From Escherichia coli (GTDB lineage Bacteria; Pseudomonadota; Gammaproteobacteria; Enterobacterales; Enterobacteriaceae): a stretch of 64,000 nucleotides of DNA. A program made the position numbers and the translations under genes. Location: assembly GCF_044324785.1 (NCBI RefSeq), contig NZ_CP172127.1; one strand, 5' to 3'. This document shows positions 50,244-64,000 of the stretch, one piece after another. The notes under the pieces are model-generated. The model had not been told where the DNA came from and searched no databases. It saw nothing but the letters and a program-made list of their open reading frames with translations. Positions within the stretch are counted from its first letter, which is position 1, and every line of letters starts with the position of its first letter.

Positions 50244-51230
50244 TTAAACCACCCGATCCAGCCCCAACATGCCGCGAGCCTGAATGAAACAGAGCAGCAA
50301 CGTTCCCCATAAGGCCATCGTCAGGTAGGGGCTTATACCGAGAATATTGAAGCCGCTTTCAATAATTTGCAGAAGAAACAGCGCCAGCACCATACCAATT
50401 ATCCGCCCGCTGCCGCCGTCCGGATTAACCCCGCCGAGTACTGCCGCGAGGATTGACACCAGCAAGTACGATTCGCCATAAGAGGCCTTAGCCGAGTTGA
50501 GTTTCGACATCATCAAAAATGCCGCTACCGCACAAAGCAAGGCGGAAATGACATACACCCATATCAGCACCCGACGAGTGTTAATACCGGAGTAAAGTGT
50601 TGCTCGTTCGTTAGAACCAATCAGATAAATGGCTTTACCGAGCGGCGTTTTCTCCAGCAATATCCACAGTCCCAGCGCCACTGCGGTAAACAACCACATC
50701 GGTAGCGGAATACCGAACCACTGTGCATGATTCAACCACAGCACCCATGAGGGATAATTGGCAATGGCGCTACCACCTGTCACCAGAATATTTATCCCTT
50801 TGAGCAACGTCATCATCCCAAGCGTTGCAAGAATTGGCGACACTCGAATACCAGCAATCAATACGCCGTTACATAAACCGATTATCACCGCCGCGCCAGC
50901 GCCCGCCAGTAACGTAGCGACAACCGTAGCAATACCCGGTGGATACTGAGTCGCCACCCACGCCATCACCAGTGAACAGGCGTTAGCAGTGGCTATAATT
51001 GACAAGTTAATGCCACCGCAAAGCATGGTCACCGCCATAGCCAACGCCAGAATGCCCAGCACGGGCATTTGCGAAGCGACGGACTGGAAATTACTTATCG
51101 ACCAGAAAATCTCCGGCATAGTAATGCTGAAGGCGGCAACAGTTAGCACCAGCAGGCCGATCAAGTAAAACTCAACGTTATTACGCCACGATTTTTTCAT
51201 AGCAGACTCCGGTTCTGATGCTGACTCCAC
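50244..51230 (-). CDS. Sugar-type ABC transporter permease (RbsC/LsrD-like), 328 aa
   Basis: Polytopic hydrophobic protein of the monosaccharide-permease type; overlaps the upstream permease by 34 nt. Confidence 0.75.
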   Translation of the reverse strand: MESASEPESAMKKSWRNNVEFYLIGLLVLTVAAFSITMPEIFWSISNFQSVASQMPVLGILALAMAVTMLCGGINLSIIATANACSLVMAWVATQYPPGIATVVATLLAGAGAAVIIGLCNGVLIAGIRVSPILATLGMMTLLKGINILVTGGSAIANYPSWVLWLNHAQWFGIPLPMWLFTAVALGLWILLEKTPLGKAIYLIGSNERATLYSGINTRRVLIWVYVISALLCAVAAFLMMSKLNSAKASYGESYLLVSILAAVLGGVNPDGGSGRIIGMVLALFLLQIIESGFNILGISPYLTMALWGTLLLCFIQARGMLGLDRVV

Positions 51231-52168
51231 GCCGTGGCGCTAATGCTGGCAACGATGATGATGCCGGTGATCAATGTTTGCCAGTAAGACGAGACTCCCA
51301 ATAAATTTAGCCCGTTTTGCATTACTGCCAACAACACCACGCCGAGCAAAGTACCGGTTAACGTGCCGCGCCCGCCGAGCAAACTAGTGCCGCCAAGCAC
51401 CACCGCAGCCAGTACTGTCAGCTCATAACCCAGAAGAGAATCGGGGGCGACAGTCATCACCGTCCACGACTGCACTACACCCGCAGCACCAGACATCAAT
51501 CCCATATAGCCGTAGACGAAAAGTTGCAGTTTCAGCACGCTAAAGCCGATGCGACTGGCTGATTCACGGTTCCCGCCAAGGGCATAAATTTTGCGCCCTA
51601 CACTGGTGAAATTCATGATAAACGCTGTTAGCAGCACCACCGTAATCATGGCGATCAGCGGTAGACCAAGGCCATAGTCATAGCCATCAGCATCGGTGTA
51701 CTTGAACAACATTACCCCCTGCTCAAACCACGGCGGAAAGTCGTACAGCCACACACCTTTACTCAACCATAACAGCAGGCCATAGAAAATATTCAGCGTC
51801 GAGATAGTGATGATGATAGAAGGCACCCGTAGGCGATTAACCAGTAAGGCGTTTATTAAGCCAAGTAAAATGCCGATGCCGCCCGCCAGTGCAAACGCGA
51901 CAGCGAAGTTGCCACCAATTTTTTGCAGCAACAGCACCATGCCGTATTGCGCAATGATGGTCATTGCCGGAAACGAAATATCAATTCCACCGGAAATCAA
52001 CACCACAAACAAACCACAGGCGAGAATAGTCAACATGGCATAGTTATTGGCGAGATCGTACAAATTACCGAATGTCAGAAACTCGTCGCTGCGCCAGGCA
52101 AGGCCGACAAACAGCCCCACAATCAGTAATGCCAGCCAGAATTCATGACGTTTTTTCAGTTCAGCCAT
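51197..52168 (-). CDS. Sugar-type ABC transporter permease (RbsC/LsrC-like), 323 aa
   Basis: Polytopic hydrophobic protein; 8-nt overlap with the ATPase gene. Confidence 0.75.
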   Translation of the reverse strand: MAELKKRHEFWLALLIVGLFVGLAWRSDEFLTFGNLYDLANNYAMLTILACGLFVVLISGGIDISFPAMTIIAQYGMVLLLQKIGGNFAVAFALAGGIGILLGLINALLVNRLRVPSIIITISTLNIFYGLLLWLSKGVWLYDFPPWFEQGVMLFKYTDADGYDYGLGLPLIAMITVVLLTAFIMNFTSVGRKIYALGGNRESASRIGFSVLKLQLFVYGYMGLMSGAAGVVQSWTVMTVAPDSLLGYELTVLAAVVLGGTSLLGGRGTLTGTLLGVVLLAVMQNGLNLLGVSSYWQTLITGIIIVASISATAWSQHQNRSLL

Positions 52169-53660
52169 TTACCACCTCCGCAATCCTGGCCTGAGAACTG
52201 CTGTCAGGCAGGAAGCTATGGGTGATCTGACCTTTCTGCATTACCAAAATCCGGTGGCTTTGATACCACGCTTCTTCAATTTCATCGCAGATCATCAATA
52301 CCGCAATGCCATGAGCCGCCAGATCGCTGATAATGCCGTATATTCCTGCTTTGTTGGCGATATCAACACCGACTGTCGGGCTATCGAGAATCAACAGTCG
52401 TGGCCCAATCGCCAGCCATTTGGCGATCGATACTCGCTGCGCGTTACCCCCGGAAAGCGTACTCACCGGGAGATGTGGGTCAGAGACTTTGATGGTCAAT
52501 GCCTTGATTAGCCTGTCCACCAGGTCACGCACTTTAGCTTCACTCAGAAAGCCGAAGCGATCTTTTACCTTGTGAAAAACAGTGCTAATGATGTTGTCTT
52601 CAATAGATTGCGCCATCACCAAACCGCGCGACATGCGATCTTCCGAAACATAACCAATACCGTGGCGGATGGCGTCCTGGTTACTATGCAGTGTAACCGG
52701 CTGACCGTTGATGAGGATCTCACCAGCATCCGGTCGGGTCATACCAAACAGACTCAGACATAATTCCGTGCGCCCCGCACCAAGCAGGCCAACAATCGAC
52801 ACCACTTCGCCCGCTTCCACCCGCAAGTTAATATTTTGATATTCCCCATGACGACTTAAATTACGCACCTCCAGCACTGGGGTGCTGGATTTTCCCTGCC
52901 ACAACTCTCGTACCTGATATTCGAACTCCTGGCCGGTCATCAGAAAACTGAGTTGTTTTGTGGTCATCTCTGCGGCCGGAAAGGTCCCGACCAGCTCACC
53001 ATCTTTCAGCACTGAAATACGGTCGGAAACTTCCATCACTTCTTCCAGACGATGACTGACGAAGACCACGCAGATCCCGCGTTCCCGCAATTGATGCACC
53101 ACCTGTAATAACCCTTGCACTTCCTGATGGGTCAGCGAAGCGGTTGGTTCATCCATCACGATCAACCGTGCGTCCTGCGCCAGTGCACGGCAAATTGCCA
53201 CCAGCTGACAGCGGGCAATTGAAAGCTCAGAAACGAGCGTATCCAGAGGCAATGTGACGTTAATACTGGTCATTGCCGCCTGCGCCACCTCACGCAGACG
53301 ACGTCGGTTAACAAACAGACCGTGGTGATAGTGATTCACGGCGATATTCTCCCAGACACTCAGGTTAGGAAATAAAGAGAGGTCCTGATAAATCACCTGA
53401 ATCCCCTGCGCCACCGAAGCGGCGGGTGTCAGCTTTGACCAGTTTTTCCCACCAAGCGTAATTTCCGCCCCCTCATCCGGGCGATAAACACCGGACATAA
53501 TTTTAATCAACGTCGATTTACCACAGCCGTTTTGCCCGGCAAGGCAGTGCACCTCACCCGACATAAAGTCGAGAGAAACATCGCGCAGCGCTCGCGTGGC
53601 ATGAAACGTTTTGTTGATATGACGAAGGGAAAGGAAGGTTTCCATAGCATCCCCTGGCAA
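52161..53660 (-). CDS. Two-domain ABC transporter ATP-binding protein (RbsA/LsrA-like), 499 aa
   Basis: Two Walker A motifs (GQNGCGKST and GLLGAGRTE) and signature LSGGNAQRV. Confidence 0.85.
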   Translation of the reverse strand: MPGDAMETFLSLRHINKTFHATRALRDVSLDFMSGEVHCLAGQNGCGKSTLIKIMSGVYRPDEGAEITLGGKNWSKLTPAASVAQGIQVIYQDLSLFPNLSVWENIAVNHYHHGLFVNRRRLREVAQAAMTSINVTLPLDTLVSELSIARCQLVAICRALAQDARLIVMDEPTASLTHQEVQGLLQVVHQLRERGICVVFVSHRLEEVMEVSDRISVLKDGELVGTFPAAEMTTKQLSFLMTGQEFEYQVRELWQGKSSTPVLEVRNLSRHGEYQNINLRVEAGEVVSIVGLLGAGRTELCLSLFGMTRPDAGEILINGQPVTLHSNQDAIRHGIGYVSEDRMSRGLVMAQSIEDNIISTVFHKVKDRFGFLSEAKVRDLVDRLIKALTIKVSDPHLPVSTLSGGNAQRVSIAKWLAIGPRLLILDSPTVGVDIANKAGIYGIISDLAAHGIAVLMICDEIEEAWYQSHRILVMQKGQITHSFLPDSSSQARIAEVVNG

Positions 53661-53693
53661 TAAGAATCGGGGCTTTCGCCCCGAAGAAATGGA

Positions 53694-54680
53694 TTAATAA
53701 AGTGAGTCGATATTGTCTTTGTTGACCAGTAATACCTTATGGAAACGGATAATTCGCTTATCCATATCTACGTCGGCCTTACCGAGATTCTCCATTTCTA
53801 ATCCAGGTTTGATCTCTTCACCCTTCAGCAACGTGCTGGCGACGGCCGCGAGTGCGTAACCTGCAGAGGCCGGATCGTAAGTAATCCCTTCGGTGATATC
53901 ACCACTTTTAATCAGTGATGCCGCCTGTGAAGGGATCATCATGCCATAGACTGCGACTTTATTTTTCGCCCGTTTCTCTTTCACTGCACGTCCCGCGCCA
54001 ATCGGACCGTTTGAACCAAAGGAGACAACCGCTTTCAAGTCAGGATAGGTTTTCATGAGGTCCAGTGTGGTACGACGTGAGTCATCCACACTCTCGGCAA
54101 CCGGCATGCGGCGGGTAACTTCATGCATATCCGGGTAATGCTCTTTCTGGTATTTCACCAGCAAGTCAGCCCATAAGTTATGCTGCGGCACGGTCAAACT
54201 ACCCACGTAAATCACATAGCCGCCCTTGCCACCCATGCGTTTCGCCATATGCTCAACATATTCAGCGGCAAATTTTTCGTTATCAATGATTTCGATATCC
54301 CAGTTAGCACTTGGCTGACCGGGGGATTCGTTGGTCAGAACCACAATTCCGGCATCTCGCGCTTTTTTGAATACCGGTTCCAGCACGTTGGCATCGTTTG
54401 GCACAATTGTAATTGCATTAACCTTACGGGCGATTAAATCCTCAATAATTTTAACTTGTTGCGGAGCATCAGTACTTGAAGGCCCCACCTGTGACGCATT
54501 AACACCAAAGGCTTTACCCGCCTCAACCACACCTTCGCCCATGCGATTAAACCACGGCATACCATCGACTTTAGAGATATTCACCACGACTTTTTCCGCT
54601 GCCTGGAGCGGCGCAGAAATTAGCGCAGCGCCTAATAACAGCGAAGACACCATATTGATAACAAAACGTTTATTCATCAT
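53694..54680 (-). CDS. Periplasmic sugar-binding protein (LsrB/RbsB-type), 328 aa
   Basis: Signal peptide MMNKRFVINMVSSLLLGAALISAPLQA; C-terminus …FHKVLLVNKDNIDSLY resembles the LsrB C-terminus as I recall it. Confidence 0.7.
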   Translation of the reverse strand: MMNKRFVINMVSSLLLGAALISAPLQAAEKVVVNISKVDGMPWFNRMGEGVVEAGKAFGVNASQVGPSSTDAPQQVKIIEDLIARKVNAITIVPNDANVLEPVFKKARDAGIVVLTNESPGQPSANWDIEIIDNEKFAAEYVEHMAKRMGGKGGYVIYVGSLTVPQHNLWADLLVKYQKEHYPDMHEVTRRMPVAESVDDSRRTTLDLMKTYPDLKAVVSFGSNGPIGAGRAVKEKRAKNKVAVYGMMIPSQAASLIKSGDITEGITYDPASAGYALAAVASTLLKGEEIKPGLEMENLGKADVDMDKRIIRFHKVLLVNKDNIDSLY

Positions 54681-54930
54681 TTCAGCCTCATTGCAGGGTA
54701 GTCAGGAAGTGTTCGCCCAAATTAGCGCGCTGGAGAGAATAAGAATTTTCGAATATTTTTATGCAGAATAAACAGCCCTATTTCAGGCAGCTATTAAAAA
54801 TTTGGTTATAAATATGGACAAAACGGGCAGCAATAATAAGTGTGACACTCATCACGTAAAAAATAGCAAAATAAACAAAATTAGCGATATTTTATGTTTG
54901 TGAGCTTATTTCGCGTAGAAAAATAGTTAT

Positions 54931-55341
54931 CTACACAACGTCAATAAGGGCATATTCTTCAAAGATAACGTCCATTTCGGGTGAATAGCATCCTTCTGCC
55001 TGGAAAAAACGACGGTGTTCATTACGCCAATATTCAAGACTGAGGTCACCTTCACCTTCCTTACGGGCAAGCTCCGCGGTGACATCAGAAAAGCGCAGTA
55101 AATGCAGGCCAATCACTCTGATAACACAGACAGGCTCACCACGGCTATTTTCTACAATCTTATACTCACCAATCATCGGAAATGCGTTGTCTTCAATACA
55201 TCCCGCCAGCGAACCACAGGAAGCTGTTTTAACACCTGTCGCAATCAACGTTGCGAGGTGATCGGCCAACGCTGCTGAATCGCCAAAAGTACAAAAGGAA
55301 GCATGGGGATATTTTTGTGAGATTTTTTCTTTTATGGTCAT
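54931..55341 (-). CDS. Small cytoplasmic protein, possible ASCH/PUA-like domain, about 136 aa
   Basis: Segment TGVKTASCGSL resembles the ASCH G-x-K-T motif; start (55341 versus 55374) uncertain. Confidence 0.45.
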   Translation of the reverse strand: MTIKEKISQKYPHASFCTFGDSAALADHLATLIATGVKTASCGSLAGCIEDNAFPMIGEYKIVENSRGEPVCVIRVIGLHLLRFSDVTAELARKEGEGDLSLEYWRNEHRRFFQAEGCYSPEMDVIFEEYALIDVV

Positions 55342-55637
55342 GAGAATATTTTCGCGATTACGGAAAAAAATCACATCTTAATTACTGTAGATAACCATCA
55401 GCAAGAGGATCATTGGTTTTCCTATGTTTAATCTTTTTTATCCGAAGCAGGTCACATTTATGGCTTGATAAATACCTTTGTTAAAACTCACTTTTGTGTA
55501 TTTCTCTCAAATAATCCCCTGGAAATTATGCCGGGAGATTATAAAGTTCAGGATCATTCATTAACAAACCATTCCCGCCCCACTCCCTGGGGCTTAAATC
55601 TCTTACGATTCACCGTTGCAGACATATCAAATGCGCA

Positions 55638-57020
55638 TCAACCTGCCACACTCCCCCACACCAGTTGCCCTTTATGGAACGTCGCCGTTCTCGGCGAGAT
55701 ACGCGCCACCGCCTCGGCGGAACAGGAGGCGTCCACCAGCACAAAGCTGGCGTCATCCTGCGCTTTAGGCCACACACGCTCGCCTTTTTCGTTGAGCGGC
55801 AATACATCGCCAGTGGCTAAAAACAGCGAACGGGAGAGGTTCTGTTCGTTAGGACGAATATAGAGCTGCGCGTAGAGATTGGCTTTTTCCAGCATGTCGC
55901 CCAGGCCGTAAGGCGACCAGTGGTCGATAACGCTGTCGGTGCCGGTCATCACTTTTACGCCTTTGTCGTGCAGTTGTTTAAGCGGCATATGTAGCGTGCC
56001 GATCGGCACCGTCGAGGCGATAGAAATTTGCTGCGCCGCCATCCGGTGCGCCAGTTCATCTACCTGTTGCTCATTGAGCGTTGCCAACGCAAAGGCGTGA
56101 CTGATGGTCAGCTTGCCCTTCAGTTGCGGCGTTTTCTCCACTGTTTCAACCATATAATTGATGGCCGCCACGCCTGCCGGAGTGGTTTCATGCAGGTGAA
56201 TATCGACGCCTTTGTCGTAGTCCAGCGCAATCTGGAACATGGTGTCGAGGGATTTTTCCATCGCGCCATCAACACTGGTTGGGTCCAGCCCGCCGACGTA
56301 ATGCGCCCCTGCCTGCATCGCTTCGCGCATTAAGGGTTCCGATTTCGACAGCAGCAAACCGTGCTGCGGGAAGGCGACGATTTCACACTCGAAGCCCGCC
56401 TGACGTCGCGCCAGCACCGCCTGCAAATTTTGCAGATTTTTCAGGCCGGAAACCGGTTCGATATTGCAGTGGCTGCGGGCAATGGTAGTGCCTTTCGACT
56501 GCAATAAATCGATCAGTTTTTCCGCCCTTTCCTGAGTGTACGGTTGCAACTCCGGCAGCATTTTCTGCTCGAGTTTGATCATGTCCTGGATGGTGGTGCC
56601 TGCCGGGCGATTGAGCGAGCGCCACGGCCCGCCGTAAAAGGTTTTGTCGAGATGAATATGCATGTCGCGGGTGGTGGGCAGCATCAGCTTACCGCCAGCG
56701 TCATAGTGCGGCAGCGTGGCGTCCGGATGCTGCTTGTTCTCGCGCAGGGCAACAATTTTGCCGTTCTGAATCTCTACGGTCTGGTGCGCCGTGCGGGTCT
56801 GTACCGCCACACCGTTTTCGTAGTCAAAACCGGTTTCCAGCAGCACGTTGTCGAGATAGTAGTGCGGGTCAGTGATTTTCATGGTGTTATTCGCGTCGCA
56901 GTTTAGGGTGCCAGAGACTGCCGCATGGGCGAGCGGCACAGAGGTACCAAACAGCGCGGCGGCGGTGACCATCTTACCGCTCTGGCTCAGAAACTCACGG
57001 CGGCTATTGTTTTTTTTCAT
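55638..57020 (-). CDS. yahJ: Amidohydrolase-superfamily deaminase with Tat signal peptide, 460 aa
   Basis: Twin-arginine motif SRREFLSQ followed by a hydrophobic stretch and AHA; metal-dependent hydrolase features (HIHLDKT, HLHE). Confidence 0.85.
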   Translation of the reverse strand: MKKNNSRREFLSQSGKMVTAAALFGTSVPLAHAAVSGTLNCDANNTMKITDPHYYLDNVLLETGFDYENGVAVQTRTAHQTVEIQNGKIVALRENKQHPDATLPHYDAGGKLMLPTTRDMHIHLDKTFYGGPWRSLNRPAGTTIQDMIKLEQKMLPELQPYTQERAEKLIDLLQSKGTTIARSHCNIEPVSGLKNLQNLQAVLARRQAGFECEIVAFPQHGLLLSKSEPLMREAMQAGAHYVGGLDPTSVDGAMEKSLDTMFQIALDYDKGVDIHLHETTPAGVAAINYMVETVEKTPQLKGKLTISHAFALATLNEQQVDELAHRMAAQQISIASTVPIGTLHMPLKQLHDKGVKVMTGTDSVIDHWSPYGLGDMLEKANLYAQLYIRPNEQNLSRSLFLATGDVLPLNEKGERVWPKAQDDASFVLVDASCSAEAVARISPRTATFHKGQLVWGSVAG

Positions 57021-57029
57021 CTTACGTCC

Positions 57030-57980
57030 TTACGTTTTAATAATATGTGTGCCTGTTTCGCCGCGCAGCGCCGCAGGCAGGCATTCCGGCGTGGTGATAA
57101 TCACTTCTTTGCCGCCCTGCTCCAGGAACGTCAGGCTGGCGATGATTTTTGGCAACATGCTGCCAGGCGGGAAATGCCCTTCCTGCATATAGCGGGTCAT
57201 GGTGGCAATATCCACCCGATCCAGCGCCTGCTGCTGCGGCTTGCCAAAGTGAATACACACTTTTTCGACGCCGGTGGTGATCACCAGAATGTCGGCGTGA
57301 ATTTCACGGGCCAATAGCGCGGTAGAGAGATCTTTGTCGATAACCGCGTCCACGCTTTGGTAATCCCCCGCTTCACTGCACACCACCGGAATTCCACCGC
57401 CGCCCGCGCCAATCACCACAAAACCTTGTTGGATCAGCGCCTTAATGGCAGGTGCTTCGACAATACGTTTCGGTTCCGGCGAGGCGACCACGCGGCGATA
57501 GCCCCGTCCGGCATCTTCAACAAAACGCCAGTCAGGATTTGCCTTTTGTAATTCGTCACGCTGGCTGTCACTAAAGAATGCGCCGATGGGCTTGGTGGGA
57601 TGAGCAAATCCCGGATCGTTTTTATCCACTTCCACCTGAGTCACCACGGTGACGGCTTTTTTCTCGCCGTGACGCGCCAGCCGGTTGTTCAGCGCCTGTT
57701 GGATCAGATAGCCAATGCCGCCTTGCGTATCCGCCACACAGTTCGCCAGCGGCGTTAAGGGCAGCCCTTCGCGCTCGTGGGCAATCTCCGCGCGGCGTAA
57801 ATCCAAACCGACCTGCGGCCCGTTGCCGTGGGTCAGCACAATGTCGTAATCGGAAGCCAGCATTTCCAGCACCGTATCGGCCACGGCTTTCACCGCCTCC
57901 GCCTGATGCTCAATCGACTGGCTGGCGTTATCTTTGATAATGCTGTTGCCACCAATGGCAACGACCACAAGTTCTTTCAT
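57030..57980 (-). CDS. yahI: Carbamate kinase-like protein, 316 aa
   Basis: Amino-acid-kinase fold motifs (VVAIGGNS, ITHGNGPQVG). Confidence 0.85.
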   Translation of the reverse strand: MKELVVVAIGGNSIIKDNASQSIEHQAEAVKAVADTVLEMLASDYDIVLTHGNGPQVGLDLRRAEIAHEREGLPLTPLANCVADTQGGIGYLIQQALNNRLARHGEKKAVTVVTQVEVDKNDPGFAHPTKPIGAFFSDSQRDELQKANPDWRFVEDAGRGYRRVVASPEPKRIVEAPAIKALIQQGFVVIGAGGGGIPVVCSEAGDYQSVDAVIDKDLSTALLAREIHADILVITTGVEKVCIHFGKPQQQALDRVDIATMTRYMQEGHFPPGSMLPKIIASLTFLEQGGKEVIITTPECLPAALRGETGTHIIKT

Positions 57981-58028
57981 GTTGTTATGTCCGCTACAGA
58001 GGGTGATGGGGTTATGACCAACGCCAGA

Positions 58029-58204
58029 CTGCCTGATGCGCTACGCTTATCAGGCCTAGAATTCTCGTGCCATTCGTAGGCCGGATAAGGCGTTCACGCC
58101 GCATCCGGCAATGGTGACAAATGCCTGATGCGCTACGCTTATCAGGCCTACAGATTCTCGCGCCACTCGTAGGCCGGATAAGGCGTTCACGCCGCATCCG
58201 GCAA
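58029..58204. repeat. BIME: tandem pair of about 95-bp units, each with two REP sequences
   Basis: Two near-identical units containing GCCTGATGCGCTACGCTTATCAGGCCTA and GTAGGCCGGATAAGGCGTTCACGCCGCATCCGGCA. Confidence 0.85.
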
Positions 58205-58225
58205 AGACAACGCGCACTTTGCAGG

Positions 58226-59503
58226 TCAGACGCCGTAACGTTCGCACCAGCCAAGAATGGCTTTTTCGAAGCAGGCGAATGGTGGATGCACAATGCCCGC
58301 GCCAATCATGCCGATGCCCGCATCTTTATGAGCGATGGCGGTGTTGATCACTGGCAGAATGCCGCTACTGCCCACGCGGGTGATGTCGATTGCCGACGGC
58401 ACGCCCATAAAACCGAGCAGCGGAATGGTGACGTTGGGGTTTTCGCCGAGAGTGATTTCGCGCATCTGACGGGAGAAATCGATAGCTTCTTCCACCGTAC
58501 CGCCCACCAGCGCGACGATTGCAGGCGCGGTCGCCATAGCAAATCCGCCAATACCGTAGGTTTCGGTGATGGCACTGTCGCCAATATCCAATCCAGAATC
58601 TTCCGGCTTATAACCGGCAAACATCGGGCCGATCACCTGCTGCGCCGGACCGGAGAAGTAGTCGCTGCTGGCGACAAACTCAAACACTTCGCGCTGTTGC
58701 TCGACGGAATAGCCCGCCTGAATAATCCCCGGCGTCAGCGCCTGAATCAGCAACGTAGTCCCGGCGTTATTGCGGTTATGGCATTCATCGCCCATATGCA
58801 GCGCCTGCGCCAGCATCAAGCGCAGATCGATCTCGCCGATAATTTTCATTGCGTCACGCAGCATTGGCCCCTGCACATCGCGCATCCAGTTGAGGCGGTC
58901 AATCACGCTCTGGTCGTTAGCGCCCATACGCAAAATCTTCGCCATCTGCTCGCTCATGTTGGTATAAGCGATGTTGCCGTAGGTTTTGTTTTTTACGATG
59001 TGCATAAACATCGAGGCCGAGGTAACACCCGCCATCGATCCCACACAGTCGTGTTCGTGGCACGGCGAGAAGGTGATCTCCCCGGAGGCCGCCAGGTCAG
59101 CCGCCTCGTCGAGATCTTTCGCCAGTCCTTCGAACACCAGCGCTCCGGTGACCGCGCCTTTCATCGCGCCGCACATTTTTTCCCAGGTGATCGGCGGCCC
59201 GGCGTGAAGAATGGTTTTCGGCGTCATGCCCGGCACCACGTTAATCGCCTGATCAAAACCAATCAGCACCGGATGTGACTGAATAATGCGCTCCAGAGCC
59301 TGCTGATTAGCGGCGGCGATTTTGTCTGCCAGCGGCGAATCGGCAATGTTATCCAGCGCCTGCACCACCTGCATATTGCCCTGCCCCGGCGGCGTCCAGT
59401 CGAGTTGGGTCACTTCTACATGCTGCTTTTTCAGGTCATCGCTAAACATGGCGATGCCGACGTTAATAACGTTCAACGGTTGGCTAAACAGTGACTGGCT
59501 CAT
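58226..59503 (-). CDS. yahG: DUF1116-family protein YahG, 425 aa
   Basis: Start ATG overlaps the yahF stop (ATGA); I recall the K-12 protein as longer, so the N-terminus is uncertain. Confidence 0.75.
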   Translation of the reverse strand: MSQSLFSQPLNVINVGIAMFSDDLKKQHVEVTQLDWTPPGQGNMQVVQALDNIADSPLADKIAAANQQALERIIQSHPVLIGFDQAINVVPGMTPKTILHAGPPITWEKMCGAMKGAVTGALVFEGLAKDLDEAADLAASGEITFSPCHEHDCVGSMAGVTSASMFMHIVKNKTYGNIAYTNMSEQMAKILRMGANDQSVIDRLNWMRDVQGPMLRDAMKIIGEIDLRLMLAQALHMGDECHNRNNAGTTLLIQALTPGIIQAGYSVEQQREVFEFVASSDYFSGPAQQVIGPMFAGYKPEDSGLDIGDSAITETYGIGGFAMATAPAIVALVGGTVEEAIDFSRQMREITLGENPNVTIPLLGFMGVPSAIDITRVGSSGILPVINTAIAHKDAGIGMIGAGIVHPPFACFEKAILGWCERYGV

Positions 59504-61050
59504 CAGGCTTCCTCCCCTTTGCAGATAAATTCACGCGCCAGCAATCCGGTATTGGTGCTACTGCTGGCCAGAATCACTCCGCCATCAAGCAGCATCTGGC
59601 TTTGTTGTTCTAACGATGGCGTATCGAGATCGGTACCCAGAACATAGGCGAGAATGATCAACTCGCGCCCTTCGGCAGCGGCGATCGCTTTCGCCTCTTT
59701 GATCGCCTCGATGGTGGAACCGACCGGATCTTCATGCGATCCAAACCCGAGCACAAAATCCATCACGATCACCGCCACTTCTGGATCGCGCGCTTCTTCG
59801 ATCAACCGGCTGATACGGTTGGTGGGGTCAATCATTGGATGCGGCTTGCCGTTGGTGAAGTCGTCATCGCCAAAGTCGAGGAAGGTGTGTTTGATGCTGC
59901 GGTTGATATCTTGCAGGCGGAATTCAGGATCGGGCTGAATGTTGCTGTAGACATCGCCATGTTTTTCCATCACCGCGAACATGGTTTCGTCACACAGCGT
60001 ACCGCCGCAGAACAGGCCACGAATGTATTTCTGTTGCGGCTTCAGGCGAGCGCGCACGTCAGCAATCAATGGCTGGTTCAGGGTATGCAGATCGAGATGT
60101 TCCTGTTTCACGCCGGAGAGCATCACCGCTTTCAGCGCCGCTTCTTTGCTGCCGCGGGCAAACTTTAGCCCCTGCTCATCCACTGGCGTTTCGCCACGAC
60201 CGAGGAAGCAGACCACCACCGGCTTGCGGCAGGCGCGTGCGCGTTCCAGCACTTTGCGGGCCACCGCAGGCGCAGGCGGTTTGGAGATAAGCACAATAAT
60301 TTCAGTTTGCGGATCGTTTTCCAGCATCCCGATGGCGTCGAGCATCATCAGGCCGCCGATTTTCTCGCTCAGGTCGCGCCCGCCGGTGCCGATCAGTTGC
60401 GAAACGCCGCCGCCAAATTCATGGATACGGACGCTCAGCTCCTGGCTACCGGTGCCGGATGCGCCAACAATGCCGATGTTGCCGCGACGCACGGCGTTAC
60501 CAAAGCAGAGCGCCGCGCCGTTGATAATCGCCGTACCGCAGTCTGGCCCCATCATCAGCAGCCCTTTTTCGTGGGCCAACTGTTTGAGCGCCAGTTCATC
60601 TTCAACTGAGACGTTATCGGAAAACAGCATCACGTTAAGATCGTTTTGCAGCGCCTGACGCGCTTCGCGAGCGGCAAACAGACCGTTGACCGAAATCACC
60701 GCCAGGTTACTTTCCGGGATATGCTTTTTGGCGCTGGCAATAGTGGCATAGCGTGCTTCATGTGAACCAGTTTGAGCTTTGCTGTTGAACAGTTCTTCAA
60801 TCTCCACCAGCAACTGCTCGTTGTCCGCACCCGCTTTGCCGTTGATGACAATCATCAGGTCACCGTTTTTCGCCTGCTCCAGTTCCGGCGTCAGCAGTCC
60901 TAAATTCTTCAGCACGCCTTTGTTCATTTCGGTCGCCATCGCCACAAATGCCTGCTCGACGCCGTCGAGTTTATTTGCACGCGTGGAGATAGACATCAGC
61001 GAGACAGAATCAAAATAGGTATTCGGTTTAATGACTATTTTAACTGACAT
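59503..61050 (-). CDS. yahF: FdrA-family protein (NDP-forming acyl-CoA synthetase-like), 515 aa
   Basis: CoA-binding/succinyl-CoA-ligase-alpha-like features. Confidence 0.85.
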   Translation of the reverse strand: MSVKIVIKPNTYFDSVSLMSISTRANKLDGVEQAFVAMATEMNKGVLKNLGLLTPELEQAKNGDLMIVINGKAGADNEQLLVEIEELFNSKAQTGSHEARYATIASAKKHIPESNLAVISVNGLFAAREARQALQNDLNVMLFSDNVSVEDELALKQLAHEKGLLMMGPDCGTAIINGAALCFGNAVRRGNIGIVGASGTGSQELSVRIHEFGGGVSQLIGTGGRDLSEKIGGLMMLDAIGMLENDPQTEIIVLISKPPAPAVARKVLERARACRKPVVVCFLGRGETPVDEQGLKFARGSKEAALKAVMLSGVKQEHLDLHTLNQPLIADVRARLKPQQKYIRGLFCGGTLCDETMFAVMEKHGDVYSNIQPDPEFRLQDINRSIKHTFLDFGDDDFTNGKPHPMIDPTNRISRLIEEARDPEVAVIVMDFVLGFGSHEDPVGSTIEAIKEAKAIAAAEGRELIILAYVLGTDLDTPSLEQQSQMLLDGGVILASSSTNTGLLAREFICKGEEA

Positions 61051-61903
61051 AATTCCCTCCGTAGGTTTGGCTCAGCGCACAACCATCGGCCATGCCATAC
61101 AGCATGTCGCAGCCGGAACTGGAGCCAATATGTTTAATTTTTTCTATTGCCTGAGTTGCGTTCCCAGGGATGTCATAAATAATGTTATGAATAAAACGAT
61201 GAATATTTTCCCGGCAGCGTTGTTGTAATGCGGCTTCCAGCGTTATGGCACTTAATAACGTGGTATTATTTCTGCCGCGTTGCAGACCGAGATAAAATTC
61301 CTCTTTGTATTTTTCCGCCGGATGTCCGGAAATAAATAAAATAAGCGCCAGACCTGTTAAATAATCGTCAGCTGATGGCGTAAGGCCAATCCCTAAGCCC
61401 ATCATACTGGCGACTGCTGAGGCGATATTTTGTTTATCGTTTACGGCCTGAATAACTGCCCGTCGTTTAATATGTAATTCTTTATTTAACGCCTGATAAA
61501 ACGGATTATCGCCGCAATAATTAAACAGGGTTTCATTTTCCCCCAGGTGCTGATGAATAATGTCATGCCACTGTTGCCAGGCGATAAGGTGAAAATTCAC
61601 AGCGGTCATTTGCAAGGTTGGGGACAGCCAACGCCGACAACGACTCATCTCTATATGAAGATGTTGACCAACCGTAATGCCTTGATCGTCAAACTGAACC
61701 TTATCACCATGCCGGAACAGACCATCAAAGTGAGTGAGTGCCAACCGACAACTGTTTGGCGCATTGTCATACTCTTCACAAAGCAGCGTCAGCAACTGCT
61801 GGCGGGCCGGAAGTGCGATATTTACCGCTCTGGCAAAGACCTGTTCAACCTGTCCTTGCCCCCGCTGTGCCAGAAAATCCGCATCCGCAGTTAGCGCCCA
61901 CAC
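61040..61903 (-). CDS. yahE: DUF2877-family protein YahE, 287 aa
   Basis: 11-nt overlap with yahF; synteny. Confidence 0.8.
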   Translation of the reverse strand: MWALTADADFLAQRGQGQVEQVFARAVNIALPARQQLLTLLCEEYDNAPNSCRLALTHFDGLFRHGDKVQFDDQGITVGQHLHIEMSRCRRWLSPTLQMTAVNFHLIAWQQWHDIIHQHLGENETLFNYCGDNPFYQALNKELHIKRRAVIQAVNDKQNIASAVASMMGLGIGLTPSADDYLTGLALILFISGHPAEKYKEEFYLGLQRGRNNTTLLSAITLEAALQQRCRENIHRFIHNIIYDIPGNATQAIEKIKHIGSSSGCDMLYGMADGCALSQTYGGNYVS

Positions 61904-61942
61904 ACACCGTCTTTCTGGTGTGTCGATAACAAGCCTCCCGGT

Positions 61943-62548
61943 TTATGCACCTGCGGCAATCAGCAACTGCGCAATCTCTTCAAAGCCTCGTTCCCGCGCC
62001 AGTTCCAGCGGCGTTTTGCCATATTTATCCGTCATGTGCGGGCTGGCACCGTGTTCAAGCAATAACTGGACAATCGCCTGCTGTTTAATCCCGCCATCAT
62101 TAAGCACAATTGCTTCCAGTAGCGGCGTCCAGCCAACATAGTTGGTCTGGTTAACGTTAATCTCCGTATGCGCCAAAAGCTCTTTTACAATACTTAAATG
62201 GCCTTTTTCACAGGCAGGCGTCAGGCCGACACCGCCAAAACGGGTGACGCAATTAAGATCGGGTTTAGCCGGTAAAATAATCCGTAACAGGGTTAAATCG
62301 CCGGTCAGGCAGCTAATTAAAAAAGGATTTGAACATATTTGATCTTGCTTATTAATATCCGCTCCGGCATCAATTAATGCCTGAACGCAAGCATATTGCT
62401 GATATAAACTTGCCAGCGTAATTGCCGTTTTTCCCTGACGATCGCAGGTATTAATATCGACACCCAGCGCAAGGCAGGTTTTTACTTTATCGATATCACC
62501 CTGTTGCGCAGCCAATAAATAGTCGGCAGGTAGATTTTTTATAGTCAT
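61943..62548 (-). CDS. yahD: Ankyrin-repeat protein, 201 aa
   Basis: Repeated ankyrin signatures (G-TPL…A…GH…V…LL..GAD/GAS). Confidence 0.85.
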   Translation of the reverse strand: MTIKNLPADYLLAAQQGDIDKVKTCLALGVDINTCDRQGKTAITLASLYQQYACVQALIDAGADINKQDQICSNPFLISCLTGDLTLLRIILPAKPDLNCVTRFGGVGLTPACEKGHLSIVKELLAHTEINVNQTNYVGWTPLLEAIVLNDGGIKQQAIVQLLLEHGASPHMTDKYGKTPLELARERGFEEIAQLLIAAGA

Positions 62549-62805
62549 TCACATTCCCCTGGTTTTTGTGGCTGTTTTCGATGAATTGAGAATAGCAACG
62601 ATAATCTGATAAAAGAACCCGCTTAAATTTAATTCGCCGTATTTCGCCTTTTTGTTGAATGATGTTCAACAATCTTTTCGCAGTGTGCGGTAGTGCAATA
62701 TTTGTTTCTTTGACCCGATACCCTTTCACTCAATCAGGTTTTATTTCTCTATAGTCTGCACATGTAAGAGTAGCTTTCGTCCATGTCTAACCAGAGGGGA
62801 ACAAG

Positions 62806-63303
62806 ATGAACGGACTCACGGCAACGGGTGTCACCGTCGGTATTTGTGCAGGGCTTTGGCAGTTAGTGTCTTCACATGTTGGGCTCTCTCAGGGATGGGA
62901 ATTATTAGGAACCATTGGCTTCGTCGCCTTTTGCAGTTTTTATGCCGCAGGCGGCGGTAAATCGGGGTTTATCAGAAGTCTGGCGGTTAATTATTCCGGG
63001 ATGGTGTGGGCGTTTTTCGCCGCGCTGGCTGCCGGCTGGCTGGCCTCGGTGAGTGGATTGTCCACGTTCTGGGCGAGCGTGATTATGACTGTACCCTTCT
63101 CGGCGGTGGTGGTCTGGCAAGGACGTTTCGGTTTATTGTCTTTTATTCCCGGAGGCTTTCTCGGCATGACGCTATTTTTTGCCAGCGGGATGAACTGGAC
63201 AGTGACATTACTGGGTTTTCTGGCGGGTAACTGCGTGGGGATAATTTCAGAATATGGCGGACAAAAATTAAGCGAAGCGACGACTAAACGCGACGGGTAT
63301 TAA
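62806..63303 (+). CDS. yahC: Inner-membrane protein YahC, 165 aa
   Basis: Four to five hydrophobic helices; divergent from yahD. Confidence 0.8.
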   Translation: MNGLTATGVTVGICAGLWQLVSSHVGLSQGWELLGTIGFVAFCSFYAAGGGKSGFIRSLAVNYSGMVWAFFAALAAGWLASVSGLSTFWASVIMTVPFSAVVVWQGRFGLLSFIPGGFLGMTLFFASGMNWTVTLLGFLAGNCVGIISEYGGQKLSEATTKRDGY

Positions 63304-63394: not shown

Positions 63395-64000
63395 ATGAAC
63401 TCAATTTTTACCGAAGAGAATCTGTTGGCATTTACTACCGCTGCGCGTTTTGGCAGTTTCAGTAAAGCCGCAGAAGAGTTGGGTTTAACCACTTCCGCCA
63501 TTAGCTACACCATCAAGCGAATGGAAACAGGGCTGGATGTGGTGCTGTTCACTCGCAGTACCCGAAGCATTGAGTTAACGGAGTCCGGGCGTTATTTTTT
63601 CCGCAAAGCTACCGACCTGCTGAATGATTTTCACGCCATCAAACGCAGCATCGATACTATTTCGCAGGGTATAGAAGCACGGGTGCGCATTTGTATTAAC
63701 CAACTGCTTTATACGCCCAAACACACCGCACGCTTATTACAGGTACTGAAAAAGCAGTTTCCAACCTGCCAGATTACCGTGACGACCGAAGTGTATAACG
63801 GCGTCTGGGATGCGATTATTAATAATCAGGCGAATATTGCTATCGGCGCGCCCGACACACTGCTGGACGGCGGCGGCATTGATTACACGGAGATTGGCGC
63901 AATTCGCTGGGCTTTTGCTATCGCCCCGGATCACCCATTAGCCTTTGTGCCGGAGCCGATCGCCGAAAGCCAACTGCGTCTCTATCCTAATATCATGGTG
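63395..64000 (+). CDS. yahB: LysR-family transcriptional regulator, N-terminal part (3' end lies outside the window)
   Basis: ATG 63395; N-terminal LysR HTH (FTTAARFGSFSKAAEELGLTTSAISYTIKRME); open to the window end. Confidence 0.8.
   Translation, partial: MNSIFTEENLLAFTTAARFGSFSKAAEELGLTTSAISYTIKRMETGLDVVLFTRSTRSIELTESGRYFFRKATDLLNDFHAIKRSIDTISQGIEARVRICINQLLYTPKHTARLLQVLKKQFPTCQITVTTEVYNGVWDAIINNQANIAIGAPDTLLDGGGIDYTEIGAIRWAFAIAPDHPLAFVPEPIAESQLRLYPNIMV

What the first reader, a model, noticed from the sequence alone, without database searches (positions are those of the whole stretch)
55638..62548. yahD-yahE-yahF-yahG-yahI-yahJ looks like a second carbamoyl-group catabolic pathway with a Tat-exported amidohydrolase
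YahF (FdrA family), YahG (DUF1116) and YahI (carbamate kinase-like) parallel the fdrA-ylbE-ylbF-carbamate kinase set of the allantoin regulon, which has been proposed to form an oxamate-transcarbamylase system feeding carbamoyl phosphate to carbamate kinase. YahJ carries a clear twin-arginine signal (SRREFLSQ…AHA), implying a folded, metal-loaded periplasmic deaminase acting before uptake. With the adjacent ABC importer this gives a coherent, unassigned uptake-plus-catabolism locus.
Basis: inference. Interest (0 to 1): 0.55.

Follow-up and report, generated by a model that had tools for sequence, protein, structure and literature searches.

The report
Second ureide-to-ATP operon, yahDEFGIJ
This is the E. 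coli yahDEFGIJ operon, an uncharacterised sister copy of the allantoin-pathway enzymes that split a urea-like compound into carbamoyl phosphate and then make ATP from it. It also encodes an exported deaminase, but the neighbouring ABC transporter is not part of it, and in this strain one core subunit carries a disabling deletion.

Summary
On the minus strand at 55638-62548 lie yahD, yahE, yahF, yahG, yahI and yahJ. YahF, YahG, YahE and YahI are clear paralogues of AllF/FdrA, AllG/YlbE, AllH/YlbF and AllK/YbcF (38%, 45%, 25% and 38% identity). The divergent regulator YahB is an AllS paralogue. YahJ carries SRREFL…AHA, and RRxF[LI] is present in 75/75 orthologues. It also keeps every catalytic residue of CodA-type deaminases.

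Most of this is already in databases and papers. AllFGH was shown to be oxamate transcarbamylase in 2024, Pfam and RefSeq now name these families AllF/G/H, and YahJ has long been listed as a predicted Tat substrate.

The ABC-importer link is not supported. That cassette is a 5.3-kb indel absent from K-12 and from every other genus's yah locus, and it stands alone elsewhere.

New here:
- Most genera have a dedicated permease gene between yahG and yahI. Escherichia has REP elements there.
- A Firmicute version swaps in an unrelated deaminase plus allantoin-type genes.
- This window's yahG has a private 141-bp in-frame deletion in its conserved core, so the pathway is probably inactive in this strain.

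The substrate remains unknown. It is an ordinary but still unsolved y-gene cluster.

The parts
61943..62548 (-). yahD, a 201-aa cytoplasmic ankyrin-repeat protein and first gene of the operon. It is the hallmark that separates yah-type from all-type modules.
   Evidence: ORF. Only ankyrin-repeat models match it. It is conserved at 67-97% in 70+ loci and at 54% in the Firmicute module L088. It has no counterpart in the all regulon.
61040..61903 (-). yahE, an AllH/YlbF-family (former DUF2877) subunit. It overlaps yahF by 11 bp.
   Evidence: Pfam AllH E 3.6e-28. 25% identity to YlbF, E 1e-10. It is the fastest-evolving member (35-64% between genera) and is missing in 21 Enterobacter-clade loci.
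59503..61050 (-). yahF, an AllF/FdrA-family subunit with a succinyl-CoA-synthetase-alpha-like fold.
   Evidence: NCBIfam FdrA subfamily 488.7 bits, above the cutoff of 433. 38% identity to FdrA, E 1e-101. Nearest solved structure is PDB 3dmy, FdrA.
58226..59503 (-). yahG, an AllG/YlbE-family (former DUF1116) subunit. Here it is 425 aa instead of 472 because of a 141-bp in-frame deletion (junction about 58643-58653).
   Evidence: The deletion removes GPTWMAMCKAAMDA…GLPGQWFT, which is Pfam AllG model positions 142-185. Full-length YahG is 45% identical to YlbE, 85-99% conserved across Enterobacterales, and matches PDB 3clq at E 8e-196.
57981..58225 (.). REP/BIME-filled intergenic gap (the spurious 'yahH' of K-12). 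It occupies the position where most other genera encode a ~516-aa permease.
   Evidence: Two copies each of GCCGGATGCGGCGTGAACGCCTTATCCGGCCTAC and TAGGCCTGATAAGCGTAGCGCATCAGGC. The permease is present at this position in 55/71 complete loci. The y-ome paper notes yahH is 'filled with REP23 sites' (PMC11551758).
57030..57980 (-). yahI, a carbamate kinase paralogue, 9 bp upstream of yahJ.
   Evidence: NF009007 645.7 bits, full length, cutoff 266. 38% identity to YbcF/AllK, E 1e-57.
55638..57020 (-). yahJ, a CodA/AtzC-type mononuclear amidohydrolase with an N-terminal twin-arginine signal.
   Evidence: NCBIfam PRK06846 716 bits, cutoff 447, with the match starting at residue 49. Nearest solved structures are 6nbo/AtzC, then CodA. 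H121, H123, Q219, H275, E278, H308 and D362 align with CodA H61, H63, Q156, H214, E217, H246 and D313.
56922..57020 (-). Coding region of the YahJ Tat signal peptide (residues 1-33: MKKNNSRREFLSQSGKMVTAAALFGTSVPLAHA).
   Evidence: It has the S-R-R-x-F-L consensus, a mildly hydrophobic h-region and A-H-A before the predicted cleavage site. RRxF[LI] is present in 75/75 orthologues, from Escherichia to Providencia and Aeromonas.
62806..63303 (+). yahC, a small DUF1097 inner-membrane protein, divergent from yahD. It is found only in yah loci that lack the permease.
   Evidence: ORF; RefSeq name. Among complete loci, 16 have yahC and no permease, and 55 have the permease and no yahC.
63395..64000 (+). 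yahB (cut by the window end), a LysR regulator divergent from the operon and paralogous to AllS and PunR.
   Evidence: Translation. Best NCBIfam hits are AllS at 267 bits (cutoff 372) and PunR at 238 bits. It is 77-99% conserved and always divergent from yahD.

Best explanation
yahDEFGIJ, with divergent yahB and yahC, is a paralogous, substrate-distinct version of the allFGHK 'oxamate branch'.

Proposed steps:
1. YahE, YahF and YahG form an AllH/AllF/AllG-type three-subunit carbamoyltransferase, probably with the ankyrin protein YahD as an extra partner. It phosphorolyses an N-acyl-urea-type ureide into carbamoyl phosphate plus an amide or amine.
2. YahI, a carbamate kinase, converts carbamoyl phosphate and ADP into ATP, CO2 and NH3.
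3. YahJ is loaded with its metal and folded in the cytoplasm, then exported by Tat. In the periplasm it hydrolytically removes an exocyclic amino or alkylamino group (or an amidine) from a 2-oxo N-heterocycle or related compound. This makes the compound that is then taken up.
4. In most genera, uptake is through an operon-encoded 7+7-TM permease.
5. YahB, an AllS/PunR paralogue, is the pathway-specific activator.

The logic is that of the arginine and agmatine deiminase pathways (deiminase, then transcarbamylase, then carbamate kinase), but built from AllFGH parts. The substrate is most likely a purine-, pyrimidine- or triazine-derived ureide. It is not oxalurate from allantoin.

Shown: the homologies, conserved synteny, conserved Tat motif and conserved catalytic residues.

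Inferred: complex formation, direction of flux, the order YahJ then uptake then YahEFG, and the substrate class.

In this particular strain the pathway is probably dead, because yahG lacks 47 conserved core residues. The neighbouring ABC/ASCH cassette is an independent insertion.
For: - Paralogy of four enzymes plus the regulator to the all set.
- AllFGH is an experimentally proven three-subunit OXTCase co-operonic with catabolic carbamate kinase (PMC11326118).
- Tight gene packing: the E/F overlap is 11 bp, the F/G overlap is 1 bp, and the I-J gap is 9 bp.
- The order yahB<->D-E-F-G-(permease)-I-J is conserved in about 70 species of Enterobacterales and Aeromonas.
- About 1000-aa AllF-AllG fusion proteins exist.
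- A 39%-GC Firmicute module has the same Ank-AllH-AllF-AllG-permease-CK order, with YahG 76%, YahF 64%, YahI 57% and YahD 54% identical. There an unrelated CDA-fold deaminase takes the place of YahJ, next to an allantoin-permease-like NCS1, an allantoate-amidohydrolase-family M20 and a PucR regulator.
- Other AllFG modules sit beside AtzD-like ring-opening and BiuH-like biuret hydrolases and triuret/biuret genes (PMC12625717).
- YahJ retains all CodA catalytic residues, and its nearest structures are AtzC and CodA.
- RRxF[LI] is present in 75/75 orthologues.
- dN/dS of 0.04-0.12 within E. coli shows the genes are maintained.
- MG1655 ΔallF, ΔallG and ΔallFGH make no oxamate although yah is intact. 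Yah is therefore not a redundant OXTCase under those conditions.
Against: - No substrate, activity or expression condition is known for any yah gene.
- The cluster has no ring-opening enzyme, so the route from a deaminated heterocycle to an acyclic ureide is unexplained.
- yahE is missing in 21 Enterobacter-clade loci, although AllH was needed for full OXTCase activity.
- The IncF-plasmid copy of the module lacks yahJ, so YahJ may not be obligatory.
- Escherichia lacks the permease, so uptake there is unexplained.
- The Firmicute context (allantoin-type genes) leaves open that yah-type enzymes do use oxalurate.
Confidence: 0.55

Rival explanations
1. The adjacent ABC importer (50244-54680) is the uptake arm, so ABC plus yahDEFGIJ form one uptake-and-catabolism locus.
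For: - The cassette is adjacent and on the same strand, downstream of yahJ.
- Escherichia lacks the operon-encoded permease that other genera have, so some other transporter must serve.
Against: - The cassette is a 5.26-kb indel absent from K-12 and is present in only about 41% of complete E. coli genomes.
- It is not within 10 kb of the yah cluster in any of 80 loci from other species, including the other permease-less genera.
- Its proteins are CUT2 sugar-type: RhaS/LsrB-like binding protein, AraG/YtfR-like ATPase.
- Orthologues at 77-79% identity are self-contained four-gene cassettes next to flagellar/fimbrial or pdu genes.
- A 10/12 promoter-like site lies in the yahJ-ASCH spacer.
- yah genes are under purifying selection in both the cassette-carrying window strain and cassette-free K-12.
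Confidence: 0.08
2. YahEFG-YahI is simply a redundant second oxamate transcarbamylase/carbamate kinase acting on oxalurate, i.e. the same substrate as AllFGHK.
For: - The same three families plus carbamate kinase are present.
- The closest non-enterobacterial yah-type module sits with allantoin-permease-like, allantoate-amidohydrolase-family and PucR genes.
- OXTCase activity was first found in streptococci/enterococci (cited in PMC3364942), and the Enterococcus-like PDB 3clq protein is yah-type.
Against: - MG1655 ΔallF, ΔallG and ΔallFGH produce zero oxamate with yah intact.
- YahE is only 25% identical to AllH, and YahG 45% to AllG.
- The module has its own extra parts (ankyrin protein, exported deaminase, own permease, own LysR regulator) and no link to all genes in Enterobacterales.
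Confidence: 0.15
3. In Escherichia the cluster is a non-functional remnant. Loss of the permease (replaced by REP elements) stranded the enzymes, and alleles such as this window's yahG deletion are steps in decay.
For: - The permease is missing and its site is filled by REP/BIME.
- This window has a private 47-aa deletion in the AllG core.
- Several E. coli yahJ alleles carry different in-frame deletions, and one is a yahI-yahJ fusion.
- The whole cluster reaches 80% coverage or more in only 2950/5426 genomes, which is a lower bound.
Against: - dN/dS is 0.04-0.12 for yahD, E, F, I and J between two old alleles with dS of 0.17-0.20.
- The intact YahJ cluster has 7034 member sequences, against 1-6 for each deletion allele.
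- Permease-less loci are kept in five genera, always with yahC.
- A ΔyahJ ExPEC strain was mildly outcompeted in mice, CI 0.70 (PMC7549933).
Confidence: 0.15
4. The system works anabolically or as a detoxifier. YahI/YahEFG would carbamoylate an amide or amine using carbamoyl phosphate, or YahJ would be a stand-alone periplasmic detoxifying hydrolase unrelated to the cytoplasmic enzymes.
For: - OXTCase was assayed in the carbamoylating direction.
- The plasmid-borne module lacks yahJ.
- Amidohydro_3 enzymes have very diverse amide substrates.
Against: - yahI and yahJ are 9 bp apart, and this linkage is conserved in all complete loci.
- The Firmicute module has a different deaminase at the same position.
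- Neighbours in every context are catabolic: permeases, amidohydrolases, BiuH-like and AtzD-like enzymes.
Confidence: 0.07

Closest known systems
AllFGH oxamate (oxamic) transcarbamylase plus AllK carbamate kinase of the E. coli allantoin regulon (Kim & Kim 2022, 2024)
   Same: - It has the same three protein families (AllF/FdrA, AllG/DUF1116, AllH/DUF2877) and a co-operonic carbamate kinase.
- It has a paralogous LysR activator (AllS versus YahB).
- The expected chemistry is the same: ureide + Pi -> carbamoyl phosphate -> ATP.
   Different: - Identity is only 25-45%.
- Gene order differs: H-F-G…K versus F-G-H-K.
- A ~45-aa segment at the C-terminus of AllF sits at the N-terminus of YahG.
- The yah set has extra parts: an ankyrin protein, a Tat-exported amidohydrolase and (ancestrally) its own permease.
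- It does not substitute for AllFGH in MG1655.
- Its substrate is unknown.
Arginine deiminase and agmatine deiminase pathways (deiminase, catabolic transcarbamylase, carbamate kinase, antiporter)
   Same: The pathway logic is the same: a hydrolytic deamination creates or precedes a ureido compound, phosphorolysis gives carbamoyl phosphate, carbamate kinase gives ATP, and a dedicated transporter sits in the operon.
   Different: - The transcarbamylase is an unrelated fold (AllFGH-type, not the OTC/ATC family).
- The deaminase is an amidohydrolase-superfamily enzyme, and it is periplasmic.
- The comparison is by analogy from established knowledge and was not tested here.
CodA cytosine deaminase and AtzC N-isopropylammelide isopropylaminohydrolase (mononuclear amidohydrolase-superfamily enzymes)
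   Same: - YahJ shares the HxH, Q, H, HxxE, H and D active-site set with CodA.
- It shares the HLDK motif with AtzC and 6nbo.
   Different: - Identity to CodA and AtzC is low: the matches score 61 and 109 bits.
- CodA Asp314 is Ser363 in YahJ.
- YahJ has a 48-residue N-terminal extension carrying a Tat signal, whereas CodA and AtzC are cytoplasmic.
- YahJ falls under its own NCBIfam subfamily, PRK06846.
Uncharacterised Firmicute Ank-AllH-AllF-AllG-NCS1-CK-deaminase-M20 cluster (locus L088; PDB 3clq belongs to the same AllG clade)
   Same: The core order is the same, including the ankyrin gene. YahG is 76% identical, YahF 64%, YahI 57% and YahD 54%.
   Different: - The deaminase is a 152-aa CDA-fold protein, not an amidohydrolase.
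- The transporter is an NCS1 allantoin-permease-like protein.
- The regulator is PucR-type.
- It has an extra allantoate-amidohydrolase-family enzyme.

Membership tests
AllFGH-type carbamoyltransferase (OXTCase family) | Three separate subunits from the AllF (FdrA), AllG (DUF1116) and AllH (DUF2877) families encoded together | tested here: met
   - blastp E-values are 1e-101, 5e-120 and 1e-10.
- NCBIfam FdrA scores 488.7 against a cutoff of 433.
- Pfam AllH matches at E 3.6e-28 and AllG at E 6e-53.
- Adjacent genes overlap.
AllFGH-type carbamoyltransferase (OXTCase family) | An intact AllG domain in this window's copy | tested here: not met
   A 141-bp in-frame deletion removes Pfam AllG model positions 142-185, a block conserved between YahG and YlbE. 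All listed complete E. coli genomes have the full sequence.
AllFGH-type carbamoyltransferase (OXTCase family) | A co-operonic catabolic carbamate kinase | tested here: met
   YahI scores 645.7 bits on NF009007 (cutoff 266), but 345.4 on TIGR00746 arcC, just below its cutoff of 358.25. yahI is conserved next to yahG or the permease in all complete loci.
AllFGH-type carbamoyltransferase (OXTCase family) | Catalyses oxalurate + Pi <-> carbamoyl phosphate + oxamate | not testable with these tools
   There is indirect evidence against functional redundancy: MG1655 ΔallF, ΔallG and ΔallFGH make no oxamate with yah intact (PMC11326118; yah intact in MG1655).
Tat (twin-arginine) exported protein | An N-terminal S/T-R-R-x-F-L-K-type motif, followed by a moderately hydrophobic h-region and an A-x-A cleavage site | tested here: met
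   The N-terminus reads SRREFLS…MVTAAALFGTSVPL…AHA|A. RRxF[LI] is present in 75/75 orthologues, with S/T before RR in 64 of them.
Tat (twin-arginine) exported protein | A cofactor-containing passenger that folds before export | tested here: inconclusive
   All metal ligands of a mononuclear amidohydrolase are conserved, which fits the rule. Metal loading before export was not tested.
Tat (twin-arginine) exported protein | Export depends on TatABC | not testable with these tools
   YahJ is listed as a predicted substrate in PMC3027627 and PMC7549933. From memory only: the YahJ signal peptide was among those tested with reporters by Tullman-Ercek et al. 2007. That paper is not held in the library.
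CodA/AtzC-type mononuclear amidohydrolase (hydrolytic deaminase) | HxH, His (β5), HxxE, His (β6) and Asp (β8) metal and catalytic residues, plus the substrate-binding Gln | tested here: met
   YahJ H121, H123, Q219, H275, E278, H308 and D362 align with the CodA residues and are invariant in 6 orthologues. PDB hits are 6nbo at E 4e-44, AtzC at 3e-30 and CodA at 1e-19 to 1e-16.
CodA/AtzC-type mononuclear amidohydrolase (hydrolytic deaminase) | Membership of a characterised equivalog (cytosine deaminase, guanine deaminase and so on) | tested here: not met
   Cytosine deaminase models score 70-103 bits against cutoffs of 403-483. Only the uncharacterised subfamily PRK06846 passes, at 716 against 447.
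AllS-type LysR activator | Scores above the AllS equivalog cutoff | tested here: not met
   YahB scores 267 bits against a cutoff of 372. The next hit is PunR at 238 bits against 345. YahB is therefore a paralogue, not AllS.

The most novel reading that the evidence does not exclude
The yah-type module defines a distinct, horizontally mobile, ATP-yielding pathway for a still unidentified gut-relevant N-heterocycle or ureide.

- The module consists of an ankyrin protein, AllH/F/G, a new UraA-fold permease family, carbamate kinase and an interchangeable deaminase.
- Candidate substrates are oxidised-purine or pyrimidine products such as biuret-, triuret-, malonurate- or parabanate-type compounds, or an aminopyrimidine/aminotriazine.
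- It occurs on chromosomes of many Enterobacterales, on IncF plasmids and in Firmicutes.
- The ankyrin protein would be an obligatory fourth subunit, and the Tat-exported deaminase would prime the substrate outside the cell.
Probability: 0.25. Interest if true: 0.6.

Novelty: new member of a known kind. Interest (0 to 1): 0.3.

Why it matters
E. coli lacks urease. Harvesting carbamoyl groups as carbamoyl phosphate is therefore its only way to obtain nitrogen and one ATP from ureides.

The yah cluster is among the largest blocks of still uncharacterised K-12 genes. Showing what it degrades would fill a y-ome gap. It would define the substrate range of the recently discovered AllFGH enzyme class. 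It would also explain why the module is so strongly conserved (YahG is 85-99% identical across Enterobacterales) and mobile among gut bacteria.

For annotation practice, two points matter:
- The adjacent ABC cassette should not be folded into the pathway.
- This strain's yahG allele should be flagged as probably defective.

Tried and rejected
- **Tullman-Ercek 2007 paper (Tat signal peptides).** I looked for it by DOI and by a remembered PMC id. It is not held.
- **Literature on the yah genes.** Searches for any functional study found only lists, gene tables and one incidental yahF junction in a gemcitabine evolution study.
- **Sequence-based family assignment of the permease.** It failed in NCBIfam, Pfam and PDB sequence searches. 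An AlphaFold model from a shallow 9-sequence alignment was poor (pLDDT 59, pTM 0.59). Its Foldseek hits are uniformly UraA/UapA/SVCT/SLC26/AZG 7+7-fold transporters at TM 0.45-0.57, which I treat only as suggestive.
- **Distant YahJ homologues.** The search for homologous proteins on YahJ returned only relatives at 70% identity or more, so I could not examine distant YahJ homologues and their contexts.
- **MetalloBSH preprints that mention AtzC.** I checked whether they bear on YahJ. They concern binuclear YtcJ-like enzymes, a different subfamily, so I rejected the link.
- **The 'decaying remnant' idea for all E. coli.** I rejected it after the dN/dS calculation.
- **The promoter/terminator scan.** It gave no more sites than shuffled sequence and was used only as a weak hint.

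Full report
**What is there**

The stretch 55638-62548 holds six minus-strand ORFs. Their lengths and order are those of E. coli yahD (201 aa), yahE (287), yahF (515), yahG, yahI (316) and yahJ (460). RefSeq annotation of near-identical genomes agrees. The nearest genome is E. coli N3: 99.97% identical up to 58653 and 99.0% beyond it. Gene packing is tight. yahE and yahF overlap by 11 bp, yahF and yahG overlap by 1 bp, and yahI and yahJ are 9 bp apart. yahC (62806-63303) and the LysR gene yahB (from 63395, cut by the window end) are divergent from the operon.

**Paralogy with the allantoin set**

Using the K-12 all region, blastp gives the following:

| yah protein | all protein | identity | E-value |
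|---|---|---|---|
| YahF | FdrA/AllF | 38% | 1e-101 |
| YahG (K-12 full length) | YlbE/AllG | 45% | 5e-120 |
| YahE | YlbF/AllH | 25% | 1e-10 |
| YahI | YbcF/AllK | 38% | 1e-57 |

- NCBIfam puts YahF in the FdrA subfamily and YahI in a carbamate kinase subfamily, both above cutoff.
- Pfam, which has renamed DUF2877 and DUF1116 to AllH and AllG, matches YahE and YahG.
- YahB's best models are AllS and then PunR, both below cutoff, so it is a paralogue.
- A ~45-residue element at the C-terminus of FdrA lies at the N-terminus of YahG.

Purified AllF-AllG-AllH has OXTCase activity, and all three genes are needed (PMC11326118). That paper does not mention yah. Its MG1655 ΔallF, ΔallG and ΔallFGH strains made no oxamate, although MG1655 has an intact yah operon. 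So Yah is not a redundant OXTCase under anaerobic allantoin growth.

**YahJ**

The N-terminus is MKKNNSRREFLSQSGKMVTAAALFGTSVPLAHA|AV. In 75 orthologues recovered from other species, RRxF[LI] is invariant. S/T precedes it in 64, and G/N/D in the other 11.

The mature part belongs to the uncharacterised NCBIfam subfamily PRK06846. That model starts at YahJ residue 49, so the signal is an add-on. The nearest solved structures are 6nbo and AtzC, followed by CodA. Alignment with CodA shows that H121/H123, Q219, H275, E278, H308 and D362 are conserved. CodA Asp314 is replaced by Ser363.

YahJ is therefore a competent mononuclear hydrolytic deaminase or aminohydrolase, and it is very probably Tat-exported. 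This is not new. YahJ is in standard lists of predicted Tat substrates, and a ΔyahJ ExPEC mutant was mildly attenuated, with CI 0.70 (PMC3027627, PMC7549933).

**Comparative genomics**

A scan of one genome per species with YahG gave 475 relatives, of which the best 80 loci were kept. YahG is 85-99% identical from Escherichia to Providencia, Proteus and Aeromonas. tblastn of all window proteins against these loci shows a conserved yahB<->yahD-E-F-G-…-I-J arrangement. Three findings follow.

1. *A permease that Escherichia lacks.* In 55 of 71 complete loci, a ~516-aa membrane protein gene lies between yahG and yahI.
   - It matches nothing in NCBIfam, Pfam or PDB sequences.
   - A low-confidence model hits only UraA/UapA/SVCT/SLC26/AZG-type 7+7 transporters.
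   - One RefSeq record calls it 'xanthine permease'.
   - Two homologues (38% and 32% identical) flank another AllH/F/G-carbamate kinase module.
   - Escherichia, Kluyvera, Raoultella, Pseudocitrobacter and a few others lack it. In the window, two REP/BIME pairs fill that spot (57981-58225). These loci, and only these, have yahC (16 versus 55).
2. *yahE is variable.* It is absent from 21 Enterobacter-clade loci and is the fastest-evolving member.
3. *The ABC cassette is not linked.* None of the 80 loci has the ABC cassette or the ASCH gene nearby.

**The ABC cassette**

- Relative to K-12, the window has a 5.26-kb insertion (about 50315-55577) carrying an ASCH-domain gene and a four-gene ABC system.
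- It is present at 80% coverage or more in 2211/5426 complete genomes.
- Its proteins are CUT2 sugar-type.
- Orthologues at 77-79% identity in Atlantibacter and Yersinia are stand-alone cassettes among unrelated genes.

I conclude that the cassette is an independent module. The 'coherent uptake-plus-catabolism locus' is an accident of adjacency.

**Wider family**

A search of 1.84 billion representative proteins found 3360 AllG relatives. They include many ~1000-aa AllF-AllG fusions.

The closest non-enterobacterial relative is 76% identical to YahG and comes from a 39%-GC contig. Its cluster runs:
- a PucR-type regulator (divergent)
- ankyrin, AllH, AllF, AllG
- an NCS1 allantoin-permease-like transporter
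- carbamate kinase
- a 152-aa CDA-fold deaminase
- an allantoate-amidohydrolase-family M20 enzyme

PDB 3clq belongs to this clade. So the yah-type core, including the ankyrin gene, is ancient or mobile. The slot held by YahJ is filled there by a non-homologous deaminase, which supports a deaminase role within one pathway.

Other AllFG modules sit next to different enzymes:
- an AtzD-like ring-opening amidohydrolase
- a BiuH-like hydrolase plus UPRTase
- triuret/biuret genes in nitrifiers (PMC12625717)

Within E. coli there are two further copies. One is a yah-like copy with the permease but without yahJ, found on IncF plasmids and islands in 141 genomes. The other is a module on the APEC tkt1 island (PMC3349570).

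**This strain's allele**

yahG is 425 aa here. A 141-bp in-frame deletion between two GG(A/G)CCGG repeats removes 47 residues that are conserved even in YlbE, corresponding to Pfam AllG positions 142-185. Every top-ranked complete genome matches the junction only as two pieces 141 bp apart. The enzyme is therefore probably inactive in this strain.

This is not general decay. dN/dS between the window and K-12 alleles is 0.04-0.12, at dS 0.17-0.20. Rare yahJ deletion alleles and a yahI-yahJ fusion do exist.

**Mechanism proposed**

1. A Tat-exported YahJ deaminates or dealkylaminates an extracellular N-heterocycle or amidine.
2. The product enters the cell, ancestrally through the operon's permease.
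3. YahEFG, probably with YahD, phosphorolyses a ureide to carbamoyl phosphate.
4. YahI makes ATP from it.
5. YahB regulates the operon.

Three gaps remain: there is no ring-opening step, it is unclear how Escherichia takes up the compound, and the substrate is unknown. No paper characterises the cluster, and it is listed among the uncharacterised y-ome.

**Verdict**

Most of it is already captured by current annotation and literature. The cluster is a new, uncharacterised member of the AllFGH/carbamate kinase kind and is of moderate-to-low surprise. The permease loss, the link between yahC and permease absence, the Firmicute counterpart and the private yahG deletion are the useful additions.

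Noticed in passing
window 58643-58653 (within yahG 58226-59503): There is a private 141-bp in-frame deletion between short GG(A/G)CCGG repeats. It removes 47 conserved residues of the AllG domain. None of the best-matching complete E. coli genomes has this junction.
   Followed up: yes
window 57981-58225; compare L025:11537-13087: The yahG-yahI spacer is filled by two REP/BIME pairs. In 55/71 loci from other species, a ~516-aa permease gene lies at this position. The permease belongs to an unannotated family, possibly with the UraA-like 7+7 fold.
   Followed up: yes
window 62806-63303 (yahC): yahC (DUF1097 membrane protein) occurs only in yah loci that lack the permease: 16 loci have yahC only and 55 have the permease only. 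This could be functional replacement or a single historical event.
   Followed up: partly
window 50315-55577: This is a 5.26-kb indel relative to K-12. It carries an ASCH-domain gene (54931-55341) and a CUT2-type ABC cassette. RefSeq calls the binding protein an 'autoinducer 2' binding protein, although it scores below the LsrB and RhaS cutoffs. It is a stand-alone cassette in other genera.
   Followed up: yes
L035-L062 (Enterobacter, Leclercia, Lelliottia, Silvania loci): These loci have yahD directly followed by yahF, with no yahE/AllH gene, although AllH was needed for full OXTCase activity in E. coli. YahE is also the fastest-evolving protein of the set (35-64% identity between genera).
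   Followed up: partly
L085 (IncF plasmid) and L086 (chromosomal island): 141 of 5426 complete E. coli genomes carry a second yah-like module: LysR<->ankyrin-AllH-FdrA-YlbE-permease-carbamate kinase. It is bounded by IS elements, lacks yahJ and is mostly on plasmids.
   Followed up: partly
window 55638-62548 versus K-12 (L003): Synonymous divergence of the yah genes between this strain and K-12 (dS 0.17-0.20) is more than twice that of neighbouring yahK (0.076). Identity to strain N3 also drops from 99.97% to 99.0% exactly at the deletion junction. This suggests a recombination mosaic of old alleles.
   Followed up: partly
window 56000-61000 versus 61000-63000: GC content is 56-57% across yahJ-yahI-yahG-yahF but only 45-47% across yahE-yahD, so the operon is compositionally heterogeneous.
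   Followed up: no
YahG residues 8-52 (window about 59348-59482): The N-terminal extension of YahG resembles the extreme C-terminus of FdrA/AllF (HMM E 1.3e-4; blastp 29% over 42 aa). A small element has apparently moved across the gene boundary between the two paralogous systems.
   Followed up: partly
proteins P0008, P0009, P0011, P0020, P0034 (E. coli YahJ variants): Several rare E. coli yahJ alleles carry different internal in-frame deletions of 26-46 aa, and one allele is a yahI-yahJ fusion. They resemble the yahG deletion seen in this window.
   Followed up: no
L002:769-2219 (E. coli N3, the closest genome): prpD is annotated as frameshifted in the closest relative N3. I did not check whether the window shares this.
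   Followed up: no
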